A stretch of DNA of 64,000 nt from an uncultured Acidobacteriota bacterium (GTDB lineage: Bacteria > Acidobacteriota > Terriglobia > UBA7540), in contig CAWDSK010000003.1 of NCBI GenBank assembly GCA_963804995.1, positions 576,001 through 640,000 of the forward strand, written 5' to 3'. Each line of letters opens with the position of its first letter. The first letter of the stretch is position 1. The position numbers are program-made. Below are positions 18,001 to 27,000 of this stretch, piece by piece.

Positions 18001-21000
18001 GCTTCCTCCGCCTACTACGCGGGCGGCATCGCCGAGCAGGCAGTGGGCAAATCAGCCCCCTGGTTCATCCTCGCCATCATGCTGTTTTCCTACCTGGTGC
18101 GAGCGATTTACGTCGAAAGCTGCAGCATGTTCGTGCGCGGTGGAGTCTACCGCGTGGTCAAAGAGGCGATGGGTGGGACTCTTGCCAAATTCTCAGTTTC
18201 CGCCCTGATGTTCGATTACATCCTGACGGGCCCCATCAGCGGCGTTTCCGCCGGCCAGTACCTTGTGGGGTTTCTGAACGAGATCCTCCAGTATTTCCAC
18301 CTTGCGATCGTCTTGCCCGTAAACCATACGGCTGCCTTCTTCGCTGCCCTGGTCACAATTTATTTCTGGTGGGAGAACGTCAAAGGAATCCCGGAATCGA
18401 GTGAGAAGGCTCTGCGCATCATGCAACTCACCACCGTGATGGTGGTGCTCCTGATTGGCTGGTGCGGTTACACGCTTTGGGTACGAGGCGGCCACCTGCC
18501 TCCGCCGCCCACGCTCGGACACCTTAATTTCGCCCCCGATGCCTTGGGATGGCTGAGAGGAAGCCGGCTGCCCCAGACGATCGGCATAGTGGGAATCTTC
18601 ATTGGTCTCGGCCACTCCGTGTTGGCCATGAGCGGCGAAGAGTCTCTGGCGCAGGTGTATCGTGAAATCCAGCATCCCAAACTGCCGAACTTGAAAAAGG
18701 CGGGCTTGGTTATTTTCATTTACAGCATGGTCTTCACCTCGCTGGTGTCGTTCTTTGCGGTGATGATCATCCCGGATGCAGTGCGGAAAAACTTCTTTGA
18801 CAATCTGATCGGCGGTCTGGCCATGAACATGGCAGGCCCGCTGATGCTCCGCCTGGTGTTCCATGCTTTCGTGGTTTTGGTGGGCACCATGATTCTGGCC
18901 GGCGCGGTCAATACCGCCATTGTGGGTTCCAATGGAGTTCTCAACCGCGTTTCGGAAGATGGAGTGCTGTCCGACTGGTTCCGGCGCCCGCACCCGCGCT
19001 TTGGCACCTCCTATCGCATTATCGACATGGTGGTTGGCCTGCAGCTTTTGACGATCCTCCTGAGCCGAGGCAACATAATGATCCTGGGCGAGGCCTATGC
19101 CTTTGGCGTGGTGTGGAGCTTCGTCATGAAGGGTCTGGCGGTGCTGGTGCTGCGTTACAAAAATGCCGGGCCCCGTGAGTACCGGGTTCCGTTAAACATC
19201 CATATTGCCGGACGCGAAATTCCCATCGGGCTCGGCGTCATCACCCTGGTGCTTCTGGGTATCGCGCTTATCAATCTGCTTACCAAACAGGTTGCGACGA
19301 TTTCCGGAGTCTCGTTTACCATAATTCTCTTCCTCGTCTTCACGATCTCGGAGAAAATAACTCATTCTCGCCAGGGCATTCACGAGGAATTGGATCAATT
19401 TCACCTGGTCCCGGGCGAGGAACTCACCCCCAAGGCGGTCGGAGTTCGTCCCGGCAACGTTTTGGTTTTAGCTCGCGACTACCACACCCTTTACCATCTG
19501 GCGGCCGTCCTGCGTCGCGTCAACACCACCCGCCAGGACGTCGTGGTCCTGAATATTCGAATCTTGCTACGCGCCGCTTCCGGTGAGAGCAGCCTTGAGC
19601 CGGAACAGCTCTTCAGCGTCACGGAGCAATACCTCTTCACTCGCGCCCTTTCCCTCGCCGAACACGAAGGTAAAAGCATTCATCTTTCGGTCGCTGCTGC
19701 CAGTGACATTTGGGATGGCATTCTGCGCTCCGCGCACTCGCTCCAATCCTCGACCATCGTCCTCGCACTCTCCGCGAAGATGACGGAGACGGAGGAAGCA
19801 CGGCGTGCCGGCTTCGCCTGGGAACGGCTCCCCGATCCTAAACCGCGGTTGACCGTAGAGATCTTCACTCCCGACGGCAGGGAAGAGATCTTCTATCTAG
19901 GGCCGCATGCACCCCACCTTACCCCCAAGGAAATCGATCTGCTCCACAAGCTCTGGTTAAAATACAGTACCGAGCTTGCTCCGGAAGAGGTCCACCACCA
20001 CGACATCGTACACTTCGCGCTGAACGAGTTGCAGGATGAGCTGGCTCAAGGGTAAGGAAAAGGAAGTTCGCCTGAGATTGAAAGAGCACCTTGAGCAGAT
20101 CAAGTCCCGCCGCGTTCCCCACCTTTGAGTGATTGTAGAATTTTGAATTGCTTCTATCGGCCATCGACTATTCAATCGGCCTGGCGCTCGTCCTTGGGGC
20201 GGAAGATCTGCGTCAGGATGACCCCGATCGAAACCAGGGCAATGCTGAGCAGCATAAGCAGATTCAGGAATTCGTGCAGGAAAAAGTGGGCGAATAAAGT
20301 GGCAACCAGAGGCGTGAGGGAAGAAAAAGCATAAACGCGCGCCACGGCCATGAGGCGCAGGGCCGTAAACATACAGTAGATCGCGAAGACACCGGAAAGG
20401 ACACCGCTGGTCAGCAGGGCAGCCAGGGTGCGCCAGGTTGTGGATTGCAGCGATGCGCCGTGCCCTGAAATCAGCAAGCCGGCGATACCCACCGCTACGC
20501 TCGTGACAAATTGCAGGAAGATCGCCACTGATTGGTGCGCGCCGCGAAGCTGCCCGTCACGCCACAGGACCCCGGAAATCCCGTAGGTCAACGCCGTGCT
20601 AAGAGCCAGCGGGATGGCCCAATACCACAGCGGGGAAATCGGCTGGCCCCGAACCTGTCCGAGCGCTAGCCCAACCAATCCCAGAAAAATCAAGCCCACA
20701 CCCACAAGAGCATAGCGATGAATCCGTTCATGCAGAAACACCCACGCGATCAAGGTTCCCCAGATGACGTAGGTCTCCTGAACCGGTATGGTGATGGTCA
20801 CTCCGCCGATCTGAATTGCAAAGTAGTAAAGGAAGAGTCCCAAAGTGGAGATGACGCCCGCGGCGACAAAAGCCAGGATGGCCCGCGGCCCAATGTACTG
20901 CGGCGAACTCGGTCGCAATTGATCGAGCGTGCGGTGCTTCCACACCAGGATACAACCCAGCAGCAAGCTGGGCAGTCCGCGCAGCACCGGACCAATGACC

Positions 21001-24000: not shown

Positions 24001-27000
24001 GCAAATCCTCGCTGCGCGGGGGCCTCGGTGTATTCAATTCCCTGATGGAACTTGATTACACTTCGGAGACGCGCCTGAGTGCGCCCATTACCGACTTCCT
24101 CTTCGGGCTCGACTTGTGCCGCTTCTACGGCCCCGGCGCGTGCGGTCAGTCTTTTGCTCCACCCGTGCTCACCTATCAACTCGGTTACACGCTCGGCAAT
24201 CAGGAGCCCACCGCTATTTCGTCTCCGCCCAACATCCGCAACGGTTATGTTTATGAGTGGAGCCTTTCCTATGAGCGTGAGCTCGCGCCCAACACCATCG
24301 TCTCGGTAAGTTACACGGGATCCGACGGCCACAAGTTGCCGCGGCGGGCTCTGCAAAATCAAGGCGTGCCCAATCTGCCGGGAGAGCGGCGTGGCTATCA
24401 TCCGCAACCTGGCTCCAACCAATTCATCCGCGCCACTGACGTAGACTCGAATTACAATGCGCTCGTGGCCCGCCTGGAGCGCCGCCTTTCCGGCGGACTC
24501 TCCTTCGCAGGCGGCTACACTTACGGCAAATCCCTTGACACCACCTCGGGGCTCGATGGCACCAATCAGCCGCAGGACAATTACAATATGCGCGCAGAAT
24601 ATGGCCCCTCCGATTTCGACATGCGCCAGCGCTTCACATTGTCGGGAATCTGGCAGTTGCCGTTCGGAACGAATGGGCGTTGGGCGAAGCAAGGAGCGGC
24701 CCGGAGCATCGCCGGCGATTGGCAACTCGCGAGCATCGTCACACTTCAAACCGGCCAGCCCGTCACCGCCATCCTCGCCACGGCGCTCAGCGGCACACAG
24801 TCGAACGGCACCGATCGCCCCAACTTGATTGCTGACCCCAATCTTCCCGGCAGCCAGCGCCGCCCGACCCGTTGGTTCAATACCAATGCCTTCGCCACCC
24901 CGCCAATCTTTAACGATGCGCTGGGCGCCTACAGCATTCCCGGGAATGAGGCGCGAAATGTGATTACCGGCCCGGATCTGAAAAGTTGGGACGCCAGCCT
25001 GGAACGTAACTTCCGCCTGACCGAGCGCTCAAAGATAATCTTCCGCACGGATTGCTTCAACCTCACCAACCATCCCAATTTCAATCGCCCCGGGTTGATC
25101 TTTGGTACGTCGAATTTTGGAAAGATTACGTCTGCACAAAACTCCCGGCAGATTCAGCTTTCCCTGCGCTTGAATTGGTAAGCTACTCGCATTGCGAACC
25201 TAGTCCTCCAACGTCGAGAGGTCGCCGGTGGGCAGGCCTAATTCCCAGGCCTTCAGGACGCGGCGCATGATTTTCCCGCTGCGCGTTTTGGGTAGCTTTT
25301 CGCGGAATTCAATCTCGCGCGGAGCCGCGTGCGCCGCCAGTTTTTGCCGCACGAATTTCTGAATCTCATCTTTCAGCTCGTCGCTCGGTTTGTATCCTTC
25401 GCGCAGCGAGATGAACGCTTTGATGATGTGACCGCGCATGGCGTCGGGCTTGCCAATCACTCCGGCTTCGGCGACCGCCGGGTGCTCAACCAGGCAACTC
25501 TCGACCTCGAAGGGCCCCACGTTTTCGCCGGCCGTAATAATCAGGTCATCGACGCGCCCCTGGAACCAGAAATACCCGTCGGGGTCTTTGTAAGCGCTGT
25601 CGCCCGTCACGTACCAGCCCGGAATGCGGAAATAAGTCTCGTAGCGCTCCGGTTGTTTCCAGATGGTCCTCATCATACCGGGCCAGCCGGGCTTTATCAC
25701 CAAGTTGCCGAGCGTATTGGGAGGCACTTCCTTGCCCTCGTCATCGACGATTGTGGCGTGGACACCCGGCAGGGGCCGCCCCATCGAACCGGGCCGGATA
25801 GTCATAGAGGGATAATTCGAAACCAGGATATGTCCTGTTTCAGTCATCCACCAGTTGTCATGGATGCGCCGGCCGTAGGTTTTCCATCCCCACCACACCA
25901 CTTCCGGATTCAGCGGCTCCCCTACGCTCAGCACGTGGCGGAGGCTCGAGAGGTCATACTTTTCGACCACCTCTTCGCCCGCCCCCATCAGCATGCGGAA
26001 GGCGGTGGGCGCGCTGTACCAGATGTTCACGCGGAAGCGCTCGATGGTGTGGTACCAGTCGGCAGCGTTGAAGCGCCCGCCGCGGATGAGGTTGGTCATG
26101 CCGTTCAGCCAGGGTGAAAAGATTCCGTAGGAAGTTCCCGTCACCCAACCCGGGTCAGCCGTGCACCAATAGACATCGTCTTCGCGCATGTCGAGCACCC
26201 AGCGGCCCGTCATCAAGTGCCCGAGCATGGCGCGTTGGACGTGCAACACGCCCTTGGGTTTTCCCGTTGAGCCCGACGTGTAGTGGATGATCAGAGGATC
26301 GTCCAGCGTCAGCCACTCGATTTCCGTCTTCTCCTCGGCTTTGTCCATCAGGGCTTCGTAGCTATGCTGCGATTCCGACAACTCGCTGGCCGCCGCGCCC
26401 ACCAGGATAATGTGCTTCAGCGCGGGCAATTCGTATTGCGGCACGCGTTCGACGAGCGCCGGAGAGGTCACCAGCGCCACGGCTTCGGCGTTCGCCATGC
26501 GGTCCCTGACCGCGTCTTCCATGAAGGCCTCGAAGAGGGGGTTCGGAATCGCGCCGATCTTCAGGATGCCGAGGATGGCGATATAAAGTTCCGGGCGTCG
26601 TCCCAGGAATACAAACACCCGGTCGCCCTTTTTCACTCCCAGCTTGCGCAGAACGTTTGCGAAGCGGTTGGACTGTAGCGACAGGTCCTCAAAAGTAAAG
26701 CGCGAGGTGTGTTCCTTGTCGGTATAAATCAGCGCCAGCTTGTTGCGACGGCCGCGCGTCAACTGGCGGTCAATGGCCTCGTGCGCCATGTTGACCTTGC
26801 CGGTTTTTGCCCAATCAAATTCCTTCTCTGCGTCTTCCCAGCGGAACGTCGAGTAAAGCCCCTCATAATCCTTCAGATGGTGGGCCTGGGGATCGTCCAC
26901 CGGCTTCAAGACATTCAGCGGGTCCGCAGACGCTTTCGTGGCCATTTTGGAAACCTCGTTAGTGGGAATTTGGTCTAAGGGCAGTGGCTAGTGGTTAGTG

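What a model noticed while it worked through the whole genome (the two positions that open the first line are those of the whole stretch)
20172..25181. FMN riboswitch controls an Oar-type TonB-dependent transporter in a riboflavin auxotroph
The only FMN riboswitch of this genome (C3:597468-597671) lies 61 nt upstream of a 1149-aa Oar-like TonB-dependent outer-membrane transporter (g01921) and back to back with an EamA/DMT permease (g01920), while no riboflavin synthesis gene (ribH, ribB, ribE) can be found in six frames. I read g01921 as a TonB-dependent outer-membrane importer of riboflavin (or FMN/FAD) that works with a RibN-like inner-membrane permease and makes this 7.5-Mb bog acidobacterium a flavin scavenger. 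New: no TonB-dependent transporter for riboflavin is known, and it would give a first substrate to a member of the large orphan Oar/CarboxypepD_reg transporter family (64-72 copies here).
Evidence so far: rna.tsv and call 102: FMN (RF00050, 92.4 bits), then g01921 at +61 nt (Pfam CarboxypepD_reg, OMP_b-brl_4; best Swiss-Prot hit Oar); g01920 EamA,EamA divergent. Six-frame HMM searches of the genome: PF00885, PF00926, PF00677: 0 matches each, found in 11-14 of 14 control genomes; pfam.tsv has only RibF (g02803). Relatives: one FMN riboswitch in 29 of 41 genomes of the order; of 19 relatives' loci 10 have the g01921 ortholog (62-71% id) right after the riboswitch and 8 the divergent EamA gene. 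Lumazine synthase is absent from 5 of 5 tested genomes with the riboswitch-transporter arrangement (90-98% complete; call 111) and present, beside the riboswitch, in 5 of 5 tested genomes without it. Spec [...]
(Added by a program. Inside this text positions count along the whole contig: contig position 576,001 is position 1 of the stretch shown here. "Call 12" and the like, gene names such as g00115 and contig names such as C1 are that model's own, and its searches are not shown. The text may have been shortened before it was handed on; [...] marks where a part breaks off. The agent that wrote the report below was given it as the finding of a first reader that could run no searches.)

Follow-up and report, generated by a model that had tools for sequence, protein, structure and literature searches.

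The report
Riboswitch-controlled outer-membrane flavin importer candidate
A vitamin-B2-sensing RNA switch controls an outer-membrane transporter gene sitting where related bacteria keep their B2 synthesis genes, which makes it a strong but untested candidate for an outer-membrane B2 importer.

Summary
The genome's only FMN riboswitch (window 21468-21671, 92.4 bits) precedes an Oar-type TonB-dependent transporter (TBDT). Its likely start is TTG 21789, not GTG 21732. An EamA/DMT permease lies divergently upstream.

All five riboflavin-synthesis domains are missing from this 7.55-Mb, 9-contig genome, while flavokinase is present.

In 101 genomes of the order, lumazine synthase (44 genomes) and the TBDT ortholog (54) never co-occur. 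The EamA ortholog is in 53 of the 54 TBDT genomes and 1 of the 44 prototrophs. The riboswitch lies directly upstream in 47 of 49 assessable TBDT loci.

In prototrophic relatives the same riboswitch, with the same leader design, heads one ribE-ribH-ribBA-ribD operon. Within one genus the two cassettes occupy the same site between the same flanking genes. A half-RpoB tree needs at least 7 switches.

AlphaFold plus Foldseek confirm a TBDT fold.

Best reading (about 0.7): an FMN-repressed outer-membrane flavin importer working with the EamA permease in riboflavin auxotrophs. Substrate and transport are inferred, not shown. None of my 10 literature searches found a flavin TBDT.

The parts
17866..20055 (+). 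Amino-acid permease gene. It is a conserved flank of the riboswitch locus and not itself part of the flavin system.
   Evidence: Pfam AA_permease_2, 153.7 bits. It is 69% identical over its full length to the permease that lies next to the riboswitch-rib operon of G016. The same flank is present in G003, G038 and G017.
20172..21119 (-). EamA/DMT permease, the candidate inner-membrane riboflavin transporter. It is transcribed divergently and does not lie behind the riboswitch. The longest ORF extends to 21203.
   Evidence: Pfam EamA, 96.8 bits in 2 stretches. Its ortholog is in 56 of 101 order genomes: 53 of 54 TBDT genomes and 1 of 44 ribH genomes. Homologs are mostly 314 aa. It has no paralog in the genome at E<=1e-10.
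21166..21193 (-). Promoter-like site upstream of the short EamA start. This is weak evidence.
   Evidence: TTGCCC-16-TATAAT, 10 of 12 matches. One site was found against a mean of 0.6 in shuffles.
21468..21671 (+). FMN riboswitch aptamer
   Evidence: RF00050, 92.4 bits, E 6.4e-20, full model coverage with a canonical core and insertions only in the P2 and P3 loops. It is the only copy in the genome.
21672..21788 (+). Expression platform. It holds a C-rich element (TGCCCCG at 21766-21772, with CCCCUCCUC at 21752-21760) that is complementary to the aptamer 5' core, then the Shine-Dalgarno GAGGA at 21777-21781.
   Evidence: Sequence. The MFE fold pairs the aptamer 5' core with this element. An 8-nt or longer complement occurs in 25 of 38 TBDT leaders and 11 of 17 rib-operon leaders at the same distance, against shuffle means of 2.8 and 0.8. 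No terminator-like site was found.
21789..25181 (+). TBDT gene (Oar/CarboxypepD_reg type), 1130 aa with the stop included, starting at TTG. The signal peptide is 21789-21893 and the mature protein starts at 21894.
   Evidence: Pfam. TTG with a GAGG Shine-Dalgarno is conserved in the genus. AlphaFold2 gives pLDDT 85.2 and pTM 0.85. The Foldseek top hits are all TBDTs, led by FusA at E 8.8e-34.
21912..22154 (+). N-terminal CarboxypepD_reg beta-sandwich domain of the transporter
   Evidence: PF13620, 76.1 bits, residues 61-141 of the GTG-start ORF. The model shows strands at mature residues 4-74.
22170..22190 (+). Candidate TonB box (EVLQVQA). It fits an alternating V-x-V-x-A pattern that is conserved in the 71-sequence alignment.
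   Evidence: Consensus 'xVxVxAxxPLVQ' in alignment A1 and position. Reading this as a TonB box rests on my recalled knowledge of TBDTs and was not tested.
22194..22556 (+). Plug region
   Evidence: The Pfam Plug match is weak: E 0.018, 15.9 bits against a cut-off of 23.9. The region has a mixed helix/strand fold before the barrel in the model, and the whole chain aligns to solved TBDTs.
22557..25157 (+). Beta-barrel domain
   Evidence: PF25183 OMP_b-brl_4, residues 276-1142, 738 bits. The model shows long antiparallel strands throughout.

Best explanation
The transporter at 21789-25181 is an outer-membrane, TonB-energised importer of a flavin, most likely riboflavin, with FMN or FAD possible. 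Its synthesis is switched off by FMN through the riboswitch in its leader.

The proposed route has three steps. The TBDT brings the flavin into the periplasm. The divergently encoded EamA/DMT permease carries riboflavin across the inner membrane. RibF converts it to FMN and FAD. The organism makes no riboflavin, so this route is its flavin supply.

In this family of Terriglobia the cassette 'EamA + riboswitch-TBDT' and the cassette 'riboswitch-ribE-ribH-ribBA-ribD' are alternatives at one chromosomal site. They have replaced each other several times.

Shown here:
- the riboswitch, the gene order and the TBDT fold;
- the absence of rib genes;
- the mutually exclusive distribution of ribH and the TBDT;
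- the shared flanking genes;
- the shared leader architecture.

Inferred: the substrate, the direction of transport, the role of EamA, and the OFF sense of the switch. The OFF sense rests on homology with the rib-operon leaders.
For: 1. Regulation. The genome's only FMN aptamer, with a canonical core, lies in the transporter's leader. The riboswitch sits directly upstream on the same strand in 47 of 49 assessable ortholog loci of the order. It is also upstream in 15 of 15 ortholog loci from public MAGs, and in 0 of 62 loci of 31-39% identical paralogs.

2. Auxotrophy. Five rib Pfam domains are absent from a 9-contig genome with no N. tblastn with relatives' Rib proteins finds nothing. Flavokinase is present. 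No RibU/ECF or PnuX family is present.

3. Distribution across 101 genomes. ribH is in 44 and the TBDT in 54, counting the frameshifted G086. None has both. Three have neither, and all three are fragmented or incomplete: G079, G098 and G089. The EamA ortholog is in 53 of 54 TBDT genomes and 1 of 44 ribH genomes. It tracks the TBDT even in the 13 genomes where the two genes are unlinked.

4. Independence. On a half-RpoB tree of 40 genomes, ribH and the TBDT each change at least 7 times. In all 3 well-supported independent pairs the TBDT goes the opposite way to ribH.

5. Same site. In 6 of 6 prototrophic relatives examined, the riboswitch heads one operon that holds all five rib domains. Within genus g3 the order is geneX-[ribD-BA-H-E, riboswitch]-permease in G016. 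In G003 and G038 it is geneX-[TBDT, riboswitch, EamA]-permease. The flanking genes are orthologous to those in this window.

6. Same leader design in both cassettes. In genus g16 the rib leaders carry this element as the 5' arm of a hairpin followed by a U-run. That argues for FMN-OFF control.

7. Fold. The model has pLDDT 85.2, and at least 309 PDB hits at E<=1e-3 are led by TBDTs, including the cofactor importers PqqU and BtuB.

8. Genomes without a riboswitch. A 46-49% identical homolog in another class (G391, 99% complete) also sits in a genome without ribB. G007 and G054 carry the TBDT homolog and EamA and also lack ribB.
Against: - There is no experimental or expression evidence. No RNA run was listed.
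- The EamA gene is not behind the riboswitch.
- Two assessable TBDT loci lack the riboswitch: G054, and G007, whose protein is only 51% identical.
- Only 3 independent pairs lie on well-supported branches, so the sign test gives p = 0.25. Kin are not independent, and the tree rests on half of one gene.
- Simple partition-function modelling showed only a weak change in Shine-Dalgarno accessibility: 0.38 against 0.41, in the expected direction in 16 of 23 leaders.
- The Pfam Plug match is below its cut-off.
- The only studied Oar-type TBDT secretes a protein rather than importing a small molecule (PMC6434023 abstract; PMC11658791 passages).
- From my own knowledge, riboflavin (376 Da) can pass general porins in model bacteria, so the need for a TBDT is not self-evident.
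- All genomes with the ortholog are uncultured MAGs, and this one is rated 92% complete.
- Seven unpublished genomes, all ribH-positive, are included in the tallies.
Confidence: 0.72

Rival explanations
1. The transporter takes up a flavin carrier rather than a free flavin. The carrier could be a small flavoprotein or another flavin conjugate, and the flavin would be released in the periplasm. This would resemble ferredoxin piracy by FusA.
For: The two best structural matches are the protein importers FusA and YddB. The barrel is large, with a 1095-aa mature chain and long extracellular loops. The one studied Oar-type TBDT passes a 50.8-kDa protein (PMC11658791 passage).
Against: Foldseek ranks may simply follow chain length. 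No protease or partner gene lies in the locus, and the gene is monocistronic, followed by a convergent acetate-CoA ligase. The paired inner-membrane protein is a small-molecule permease. Nothing here points specifically to a protein ligand.
Confidence: 0.08
2. The transporter imports a non-flavin nutrient whose demand rises when flavins are scarce, such as an iron complex or another cofactor. The EamA permease alone would be the riboflavin importer.
For: Iron and riboflavin regulation are linked in several bacteria (review PMC6041382, passages). EamA can coexist with the rib operon in G018, so the two genes are not strictly one unit.
Against: The transporter, not EamA, carries the riboswitch. 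It never co-occurs with ribH (0 of 101 genomes), while EamA does so once. It takes the exact chromosomal place of the rib operon. A nutrient unrelated to flavins would not be expected to be lost each time biosynthesis is present.
Confidence: 0.08
3. The protein works like Oar in the outward direction, secreting a protein or a flavin, and FMN control reflects that.
For: It belongs to the Oar-type architecture. Oar is needed for PopC secretion (PMC6434023 abstract).
Against: The leader has the same design as the rib-operon leaders, so the gene should be repressed when FMN is plentiful. That is the wrong sense for an exporter of surplus flavin. An organism with no rib genes has no flavin to spare. 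Identity to other Oar-type paralogs is only 31-39%.
Confidence: 0.04
4. The genome is not auxotrophic. The rib genes would lie in unassembled DNA or be replaced by unknown enzymes, and the transporter would only supplement biosynthesis.
For: Completeness is estimated at 92%, and all genomes concerned are MAGs.
Against: In relatives all rib genes form one operon behind the single riboswitch, and here that position is occupied on an uninterrupted 1.76-Mb contig. ribH was found in 0 of 13 other genomes sampled from the genus, including a 7-contig, 98% complete one, and in 0 of 54 TBDT genomes overall. Lumazine synthase was found in 14 of 14 control genomes, archaea included.
Confidence: 0.03

Closest known systems
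BtuB with the cobalamin riboswitch (E. coli and many others)
   Same: An outer-membrane TBDT for a scarce vitamin, repressed by the riboswitch that senses the matching coenzyme. BtuB chains are among the structural matches (8p98_A, E 1.1e-25).
   Different: The ligand class and the riboswitch class differ. BtuB is about 600 aa and has no N-terminal CarboxypepD_reg domain. Sequence identity in the structural alignment is 8-9%.
omp_thi, the TPP-riboswitch-controlled outer-membrane thiamin transporter of Bacteroides
   Same: A small water-soluble B vitamin is scavenged through a TBDT gene that lies behind the cognate riboswitch. It is listed as 'omp_thi-pnuT-tnr3' under TPP in Sun et al. 2013 (PMC3766115, supplementary file 1).
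   Different: The vitamin and the phylum differ. There the inner-membrane transporter is in the same operon. Here the EamA gene is divergent and outside riboswitch control. The same tables show no FMN-controlled omp gene.
PqqU (YncD), the TonB-dependent importer of PQQ
   Same: A TBDT that scavenges a small redox cofactor (about 330 Da) which the cell cannot make. It is a structural match (9c4o, E 1.3e-26; review PMC11658791).
   Different: No riboswitch is involved, the barrel is much smaller, and identity is 8%.
Oar of Myxococcus xanthus (Oar/CarboxypepD_reg-type TBDTs)
   Same: The same domain architecture: CarboxypepD_reg followed by an OMP_b-brl_4 barrel.
   Different: Oar is required for secretion of the protease PopC (PMC6434023 abstract). 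The protein here is proposed to import a small molecule. I made no direct sequence comparison with Oar.
RibN and ImpX, DMT-family riboflavin importers, often behind FMN riboswitches
   Same: The EamA neighbour belongs to the same superfamily, with two EamA repeats. It tracks riboflavin auxotrophy in the order. ImpX and RibN are proven riboflavin transporters (PMC4418817, abstract and passages).
   Different: It is not behind the riboswitch. Orthology to RibN or ImpX could not be tested, because no reference sequence was available and databases name it only 'DMT family transporter'. In gut genomes these facilitators were seen only in prototrophs (PMC6593275 passage), whereas here the gene goes with auxotrophy.
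FMN-riboswitch-controlled rib operons (ribD/ribE-led) of bacteria
   Same: The same aptamer and the same leader architecture, at the same chromosomal site as in sister genomes.
   Different: The controlled cargo is a transporter gene rather than biosynthesis genes.

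Membership tests
FMN riboswitch (Rfam RF00050) | Covariance-model score above the curated gathering score, over the whole model | tested here: met
   92.4 bits against 66.2, positions 1-138 of 138. Relatives that scored 41-58 bits under strict filters score 78-90 bits with full scoring. They differ only by 90-111-nt loop insertions.
FMN riboswitch (Rfam RF00050) | Binds FMN and represses the downstream gene | not testable with these tools
   The core nucleotides match the consensus. The leader design is shared with the rib-operon leaders. Modelling of Shine-Dalgarno accessibility was only weakly supportive.
TonB-dependent transporter | Large beta-barrel closed by an N-terminal plug | tested here: met
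   AlphaFold2 pLDDT 85.2 and pTM 0.85. The best Foldseek PDB matches are all TBDTs at probability 1.00, with at least 309 hits at E<=1e-3. I did not count the barrel strands rigorously.
TonB-dependent transporter | Pfam Plug domain (PF07715) | tested here: inconclusive
   E 0.018, 15.9 bits, below the 23.9-bit cut-off, when the segment was scanned alone. It was not reported for the whole protein.
TonB-dependent transporter | TonB box, and dependence on TonB-ExbB-ExbD | not tested
   The candidate EVLQVQA at 22170-22190 fits a conserved V-x-V-x-A pattern in alignment A1. The motif definition is recalled, not tested. I did not search the genome for TonB or ExbBD.
Oar / CarboxypepD_reg-type TBDT | N-terminal CarboxypepD_reg domain followed by an OMP_b-brl_4 barrel | tested here: met
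   PF13620 at 76.1 bits and PF25183 at 738 bits.
Oar / CarboxypepD_reg-type TBDT | Function in protein secretion, as for M. xanthus Oar | not testable with these tools
   Context argues for import: auxotrophy and an FMN-OFF type leader. The nearest paralogs are only 31-39% identical.
RibN/ImpX-type DMT riboflavin transporter (for the EamA neighbour) | DMT fold with two EamA repeats | tested here: met
   PF00892, 96.8 bits, 2 stretches.
RibN/ImpX-type DMT riboflavin transporter (for the EamA neighbour) | Specific sequence relationship to RibN or ImpX | not tested
   No reference sequence could be obtained with the tools. NCBIfam gave only weak ArnE and phn_DUF6 hits. Source names are generic.
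RibN/ImpX-type DMT riboflavin transporter (for the EamA neighbour) | Genomic link to flavin metabolism | tested here: met
   Found in 53 of 54 TBDT (ribH-negative) genomes and 1 of 44 ribH genomes. It is adjacent to the riboswitch in most and unlinked in 13. It does not lie downstream of the riboswitch.

The most novel reading that the evidence does not exclude
This is the founding member of a family of TonB-dependent flavin importers, and it gives the first small-molecule substrate to an Oar-type transporter. Together with an EamA permease it forms a two-membrane riboflavin salvage route. In a widespread family of peat and soil Terriglobia, that route has repeatedly swapped places with the entire riboflavin operon behind one and the same riboswitch. 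As a result, more than half of the sampled genomes of the order (57 of 101 without ribH) would depend on flavins made by their neighbours.
Probability: 0.65. Interest if true: 0.75.

Novelty: new variant of a known kind. Interest (0 to 1): 0.68.

Why it matters
Riboswitch-controlled TBDTs are known for vitamin B12 and thiamin, and a TBDT for PQQ is known. I found none described for riboflavin.

- **Missing outer-membrane step.** A flavin TBDT would fill the outer-membrane gap in riboflavin salvage by Gram-negative bacteria.
- **Handle on an orphan family.** The Oar-type TBDTs are very numerous in Acidobacteriota (at least 48 loci in this genome) and have almost no known substrates.
- **Ecology and cultivation.** Abundant uncultured peat Terriglobia would be marked as flavin auxotrophs. 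This matters for cross-feeding models, and adding riboflavin to isolation media is an obvious thing to try.
- **Gene displacement.** The clean swap between a rib operon and a transporter at one riboswitch is a compact natural example of non-orthologous displacement under a retained regulator.

Tried and rejected
- **RNA evidence.** No RNA holder was listed for window 20100-25300, so I ran no read mapping.
- **Earlier notes of this scan.** Look-ups by place and by sequence found nothing.
- **Helix test allowing G-U pairs.** My first test for leader/aptamer complementarity did not discriminate: shuffles averaged about 9 pairs, and only 4 of 38 leaders beat 95% of their shuffles. I replaced it with a Watson-Crick-only test.
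- **Shine-Dalgarno accessibility.** Partition-function modelling gave only a weak shift, so the detailed switching mechanism stays inferred.
- **First RpoB tree.** Two rows were translated in the wrong frame. I corrected them and rebuilt the tree.
- **'Variant riboswitch' idea.** The 41-58-bit riboswitches looked like altered-specificity variants. They are canonical once scored with lax filters.
- **The 30-nt-arm palindrome at 21313-21391.** It looked like a possible operator. It is a dispersed repeat with 203 HSPs genome-wide.
- **Function of the EamA protein.** Source names gave only 'DMT family transporter'.
- **Intrinsic terminator in the leader.** None was found.
- **Wider search of the phylum.** A sample of 301 genomes produced one distant homolog. 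Only 2 candidates per genome were scored, so this is a weak negative.
- **Literature.** None returned a paper describing a flavin TBDT.

Full report
**What is there.**
cmscan finds one Rfam family in the window: an FMN riboswitch at 21468-21671 (+). It scores 92.4 bits against a gathering score of 66.2 and covers model positions 1-138, with insertions only in two loops. It is the only FMN riboswitch in the 7.55-Mb, 9-contig genome.

Downstream runs an ORF that ends at 25181. It carries an N-terminal CarboxypepD_reg domain (76 bits) and a full OMP_b-brl_4 barrel (738 bits). Upstream and divergent lies an EamA/DMT permease with two EamA stretches. The flanking genes are an amino-acid permease at 17866-20055 (+) and an acetate-CoA ligase at 25200-26945 (-), so the transporter gene is monocistronic.

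The start conserved through the genus is TTG 21789, preceded by GAGGA at 21777-21781. That gives a 35-residue signal peptide and 1130 aa rather than 1149. The EamA gene most likely starts at ATG 21119, giving 315 aa. Its relatives are mostly 314 aa and align from residue 25-39 onward.

**The genome cannot make riboflavin by any known route.**
Six-frame searches found no lumazine synthase, DHBP synthase, lumazine-binding (riboflavin synthase) domain, GTP cyclohydrolase II or RibD_C. Each of these families was found in 10-14 of 14 control genomes.

As an independent check I used RibD, RibBA, RibH and RibE of two relatives of the same family as tblastn queries against the laid genome, which contains no N. 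The best E for RibBA, RibH and RibE was 0.086, and the one hit at 1e-6 covered only the deaminase part of RibD. So there are not even remnants of these genes.

Flavokinase (RibF) is present. No RibU/ECF or PnuX-family transporter is present.

**Distribution in the order.**
The same evenly drawn sample of 101 genomes, this one included, served for all searches. Seven of these genomes are unpublished: G015, G040, G049, G063, G073, G092 and G095. All seven are ribH-positive and contribute only to the tallies.

- Lumazine synthase is in 44 of 101 genomes.
- The transporter ortholog at E<=1e-200 is in 53 of 101. Identity is 65-78%, except G007 at 51%.
- G086 also has the transporter behind its riboswitch, split into three ORF pieces, which makes 54.
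- No genome has both ribH and the transporter.
- The three genomes with neither are fragmented or incomplete. G079 is 83% complete in 910 contigs. G098 has 630 contigs and a partial EamA gene at a contig end. G089 is 2.0 Mb and 75% complete.

The EamA ortholog (58-85% identity) is in 56 of 101 genomes. That comprises 53 of the 54 transporter genomes, G079, G098, and a single prototroph, G018. In 13 genomes it lies on another contig or far from the transporter (all 7 of genus g14, plus G033, G052, G054, G066, G068 and G094). The co-occurrence is therefore not only a matter of adjacency.

From the coordinates, plus for G086, the riboswitch lies directly upstream on the same strand in 47 of the 54 transporter genomes. 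Five cannot be judged because a contig ends there (G013, G075, G081, G091, G100). Two have no riboswitch anywhere in the genome at E<=0.01 (G054 and G007). The other 23 riboswitch-bearing genomes are prototrophs.

Among public MAG records, 15 of 15 loci with an ortholog of 64% identity or more and an intact 5' end carry the riboswitch core upstream. None of 62 loci with 31-39% identical paralogs from other orders do. The motif scan recovered 30 of 30 known loci as a control.

**How independent is this pattern?**
I fetched the C-terminal half of rpoB from 40 genomes. These cover 31 of the 32 genera and all five genomes of the mixed genus g3. G079 was left out because its hit was not listed, and no unpublished genome was used.

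On the IQ-TREE tree rooted on the sister family, ribH and the transporter each need at least 7 changes and EamA needs 6. G089 and G098 were set to unknown. Independent pairs that differ in ribH number 3 on well-supported branches and 7 on all branches. In all 3 well-supported pairs the transporter goes the opposite way. With so few pairs the sign test gives p = 0.25. The pattern therefore reflects several events, not one. The formal statistics are weak, and the tree rests on half of one gene.

**The two cassettes occupy one site.**
In 6 of 6 prototrophic relatives examined (G010, G016, G018, G020, G037, G071) the riboswitch heads a single operon, ribE-ribH-ribBA-ribD. That operon holds all five domains missing here.

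Within genus g3 the arrangement is as follows.

| Genome | Gene order |
|---|---|
| G016 | geneX - [ribD-ribBA-ribH-ribE, riboswitch] - amino-acid permease |
| G003, G038 | geneX - [TBDT, riboswitch, EamA] - amino-acid permease |

GeneX is 88-90% identical across these genomes at the protein level (tblastx). The window's own amino-acid permease is 69% identical over its full length to the one beside G016's rib operon. Its histidine kinase is 54% identical to the one beside G018's locus.

The place where relatives keep all their rib genes is present here, on an uninterrupted 1.76-Mb contig, and it holds the transporter.

G018 is an intermediate form, with EamA divergent from a riboswitch-rib operon.

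**How the switch probably works.**
No terminator-like site lies in the leader. About 85-100 nt after the aptamer, the leaders carry a C-rich element that is Watson-Crick complementary to the aptamer's invariant 5' core (UUCGGGGCAGGG). In this window it is TGCCCCG at 21766-21772. Just after it come the Shine-Dalgarno and the TTG start.

- A complement of 8 nt or more is present in 25 of 38 distinct transporter leaders. In 300 shuffles the mean was 2.8 and the maximum 8.
- The same element, at the same distance, is in 11 of 17 rib-operon leaders of the prototrophs. Shuffles gave a mean of 0.8 and a maximum of 4.
- In the three genus g16 leaders L016, L018 and L019 it forms the 5' arm of a short hairpin followed by a U-run.

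Rib operons are repressed by FMN; that is established knowledge of this riboswitch class. The shared design therefore argues that the transporter is also made only when FMN is low.

My model has two states. Without FMN, the aptamer's G-rich 5' core pairs with the C-rich element, as in the MFE fold, and this frees the ribosome-binding site. With FMN, the core is locked inside the aptamer and the C-rich element masks the G-rich Shine-Dalgarno. This model is inferred. A crude partition-function test gave only a small shift, with mean unpaired probability 0.38 against 0.41 and the expected direction in 16 of 23 leaders.

**The protein.**
I built an alignment of 71 sequences (A1) from the window, 26 orthologs and 44 paralogs taken from fetched loci. 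From it AlphaFold2 gave a confident model with pLDDT 85.2 and pTM 0.85.

Foldseek against the PDB returns only TBDTs at the top: FusA (8.8e-34), YddB, PirA, PfeA, FepA and Cir. The cofactor importers PqqU and BtuB follow among the top hits.

The Pfam Plug match is below its cut-off. A V-x-V-x-A motif (EVLQVQA, 22170-22190) conserved in the alignment is a candidate TonB box, but I identify it from recalled knowledge only.

The genome has at least 48 other Oar-like loci, all at 39% identity or less. The riboswitch-linked protein is therefore a distinct orthologous group.

**Interpretation.**
The most economical reading is a two-membrane flavin salvage route in an auxotroph. An FMN-repressed TBDT works at the outer membrane. 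The EamA permease works at the inner membrane; it belongs to the DMT superfamily of the proven riboflavin importers RibN and ImpX (PMC4418817, abstract and passages). RibF completes the route in the cytoplasm.

Riboflavin is the likeliest ligand. With every rib gene missing, a precursor cannot serve. FMN, FAD or a flavin conjugate are not excluded.

Two observations extend the link between the transporter and rib absence beyond riboswitch control. G007 and G054 carry the TBDT homolog and EamA without a riboswitch, and they also lack ribB. The 46-49% identical homolog in another class (G391, 99% complete) likewise sits in a genome without ribB, next to a luciferase-like flavin-dependent monooxygenase gene.

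**Novelty.**
None of my 10 full-text searches returned a paper that describes a flavin TBDT. What I read, and how far:

- The survey of FMN-riboswitch-linked riboflavin transporters (PMC4418817) has no 'TonB', 'outer membrane' or 'receptor' in its text or its 5 held supplements. It lists cultured Acidobacteria as prototrophs without known transporters.
- The RNA-regulon study (PMC3766115) shows outer-membrane genes under TPP and cobalamin control but none under FMN, in both text and 8 supplements.
- The gut vitamin census (PMC6593275, passages) lists only inner-membrane B2 transporters.
- A 2024 review of TBDT substrates (PMC11658791, passages) contains neither 'riboflavin' nor 'flavin'.

Subscription-only literature was not searchable.

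I could not test it. If it is real, it is a parallel case in another phylum.

I rate this a new variant of a known kind: a vitamin-scavenging TBDT under its cognate riboswitch, with a new vitamin, a new transporter subfamily and an unusually clean displacement of the biosynthetic operon.

Noticed in passing
window 21313-21391: A perfect 30-nt-arm inverted repeat with a 19-nt spacer lies between the EamA start and the riboswitch. It is a dispersed palindromic repeat, with 203 blastn HSPs across the genome, including a 98% identical 100-nt copy at C3:686411-686510 and copies inside the window near 55135 and 57855-57935.
   Followed up: partly
class-level sample: In a sample of 151 genomes of the class, the FMN riboswitch was found in 13 of 19 other genomes of this family and in 0 of 131 genomes of the 12 other families. 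Strict filters and E<=1e-8 were used. Within the order, family f2 (0 of 4) and genera g7, g9 and g22 have ribH without a riboswitch.
   Followed up: no
L180 (G391:C127) 925-5701: The only distant homolog found outside the order is 46-49% identical and lies in another class. It sits directly downstream of a luciferase-like (flavin-dependent) monooxygenase gene. Its genome lacks DHBP synthase and has no FMN riboswitch.
   Followed up: partly
L074 (G045:C24) 9294-11228: A group II intron lies just downstream of the transporter gene in one genome of the same genus: domains D1-D4 at 45 bits and the catalytic domain RF00029 at 54.8 bits.
   Followed up: no
L178 (G086:C40) 7198-10461; L179 (G017:C163) 3343-6739: The transporter ortholog is split into three ORFs in G086 and two in G017. 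This could be frameshifts from sequencing error or real decay. Two further orthologs (G087, G027) contain one in-frame TGA each.
   Followed up: no
window 21789 and orthologous leaders: In 15 of 16 leaders from close relatives (L072-L075, L092-L098, L100, L102, L103, L106), plus this window, the transporter starts with the weak codon TTG, about 7-8 nt after a GAGG Shine-Dalgarno. L103 has TTG but no GAGG. TTG also heads the gene in several other genera.
   Followed up: partly
L170 (G018:C55) 1-4832: G018 combines the rib operon behind the riboswitch with the divergent EamA gene. It is the only one of 44 ribH-positive genomes that has the EamA ortholog, and it may be an intermediate stage of the cassette swap.
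   Followed up: partly
L091 (G054:C38) 8100-10758: One 69% identical ortholog has no riboswitch in the 2.6 kb upstream or anywhere else in its genome. The upstream region looks unrelated to the usual leader.
   Followed up: partly
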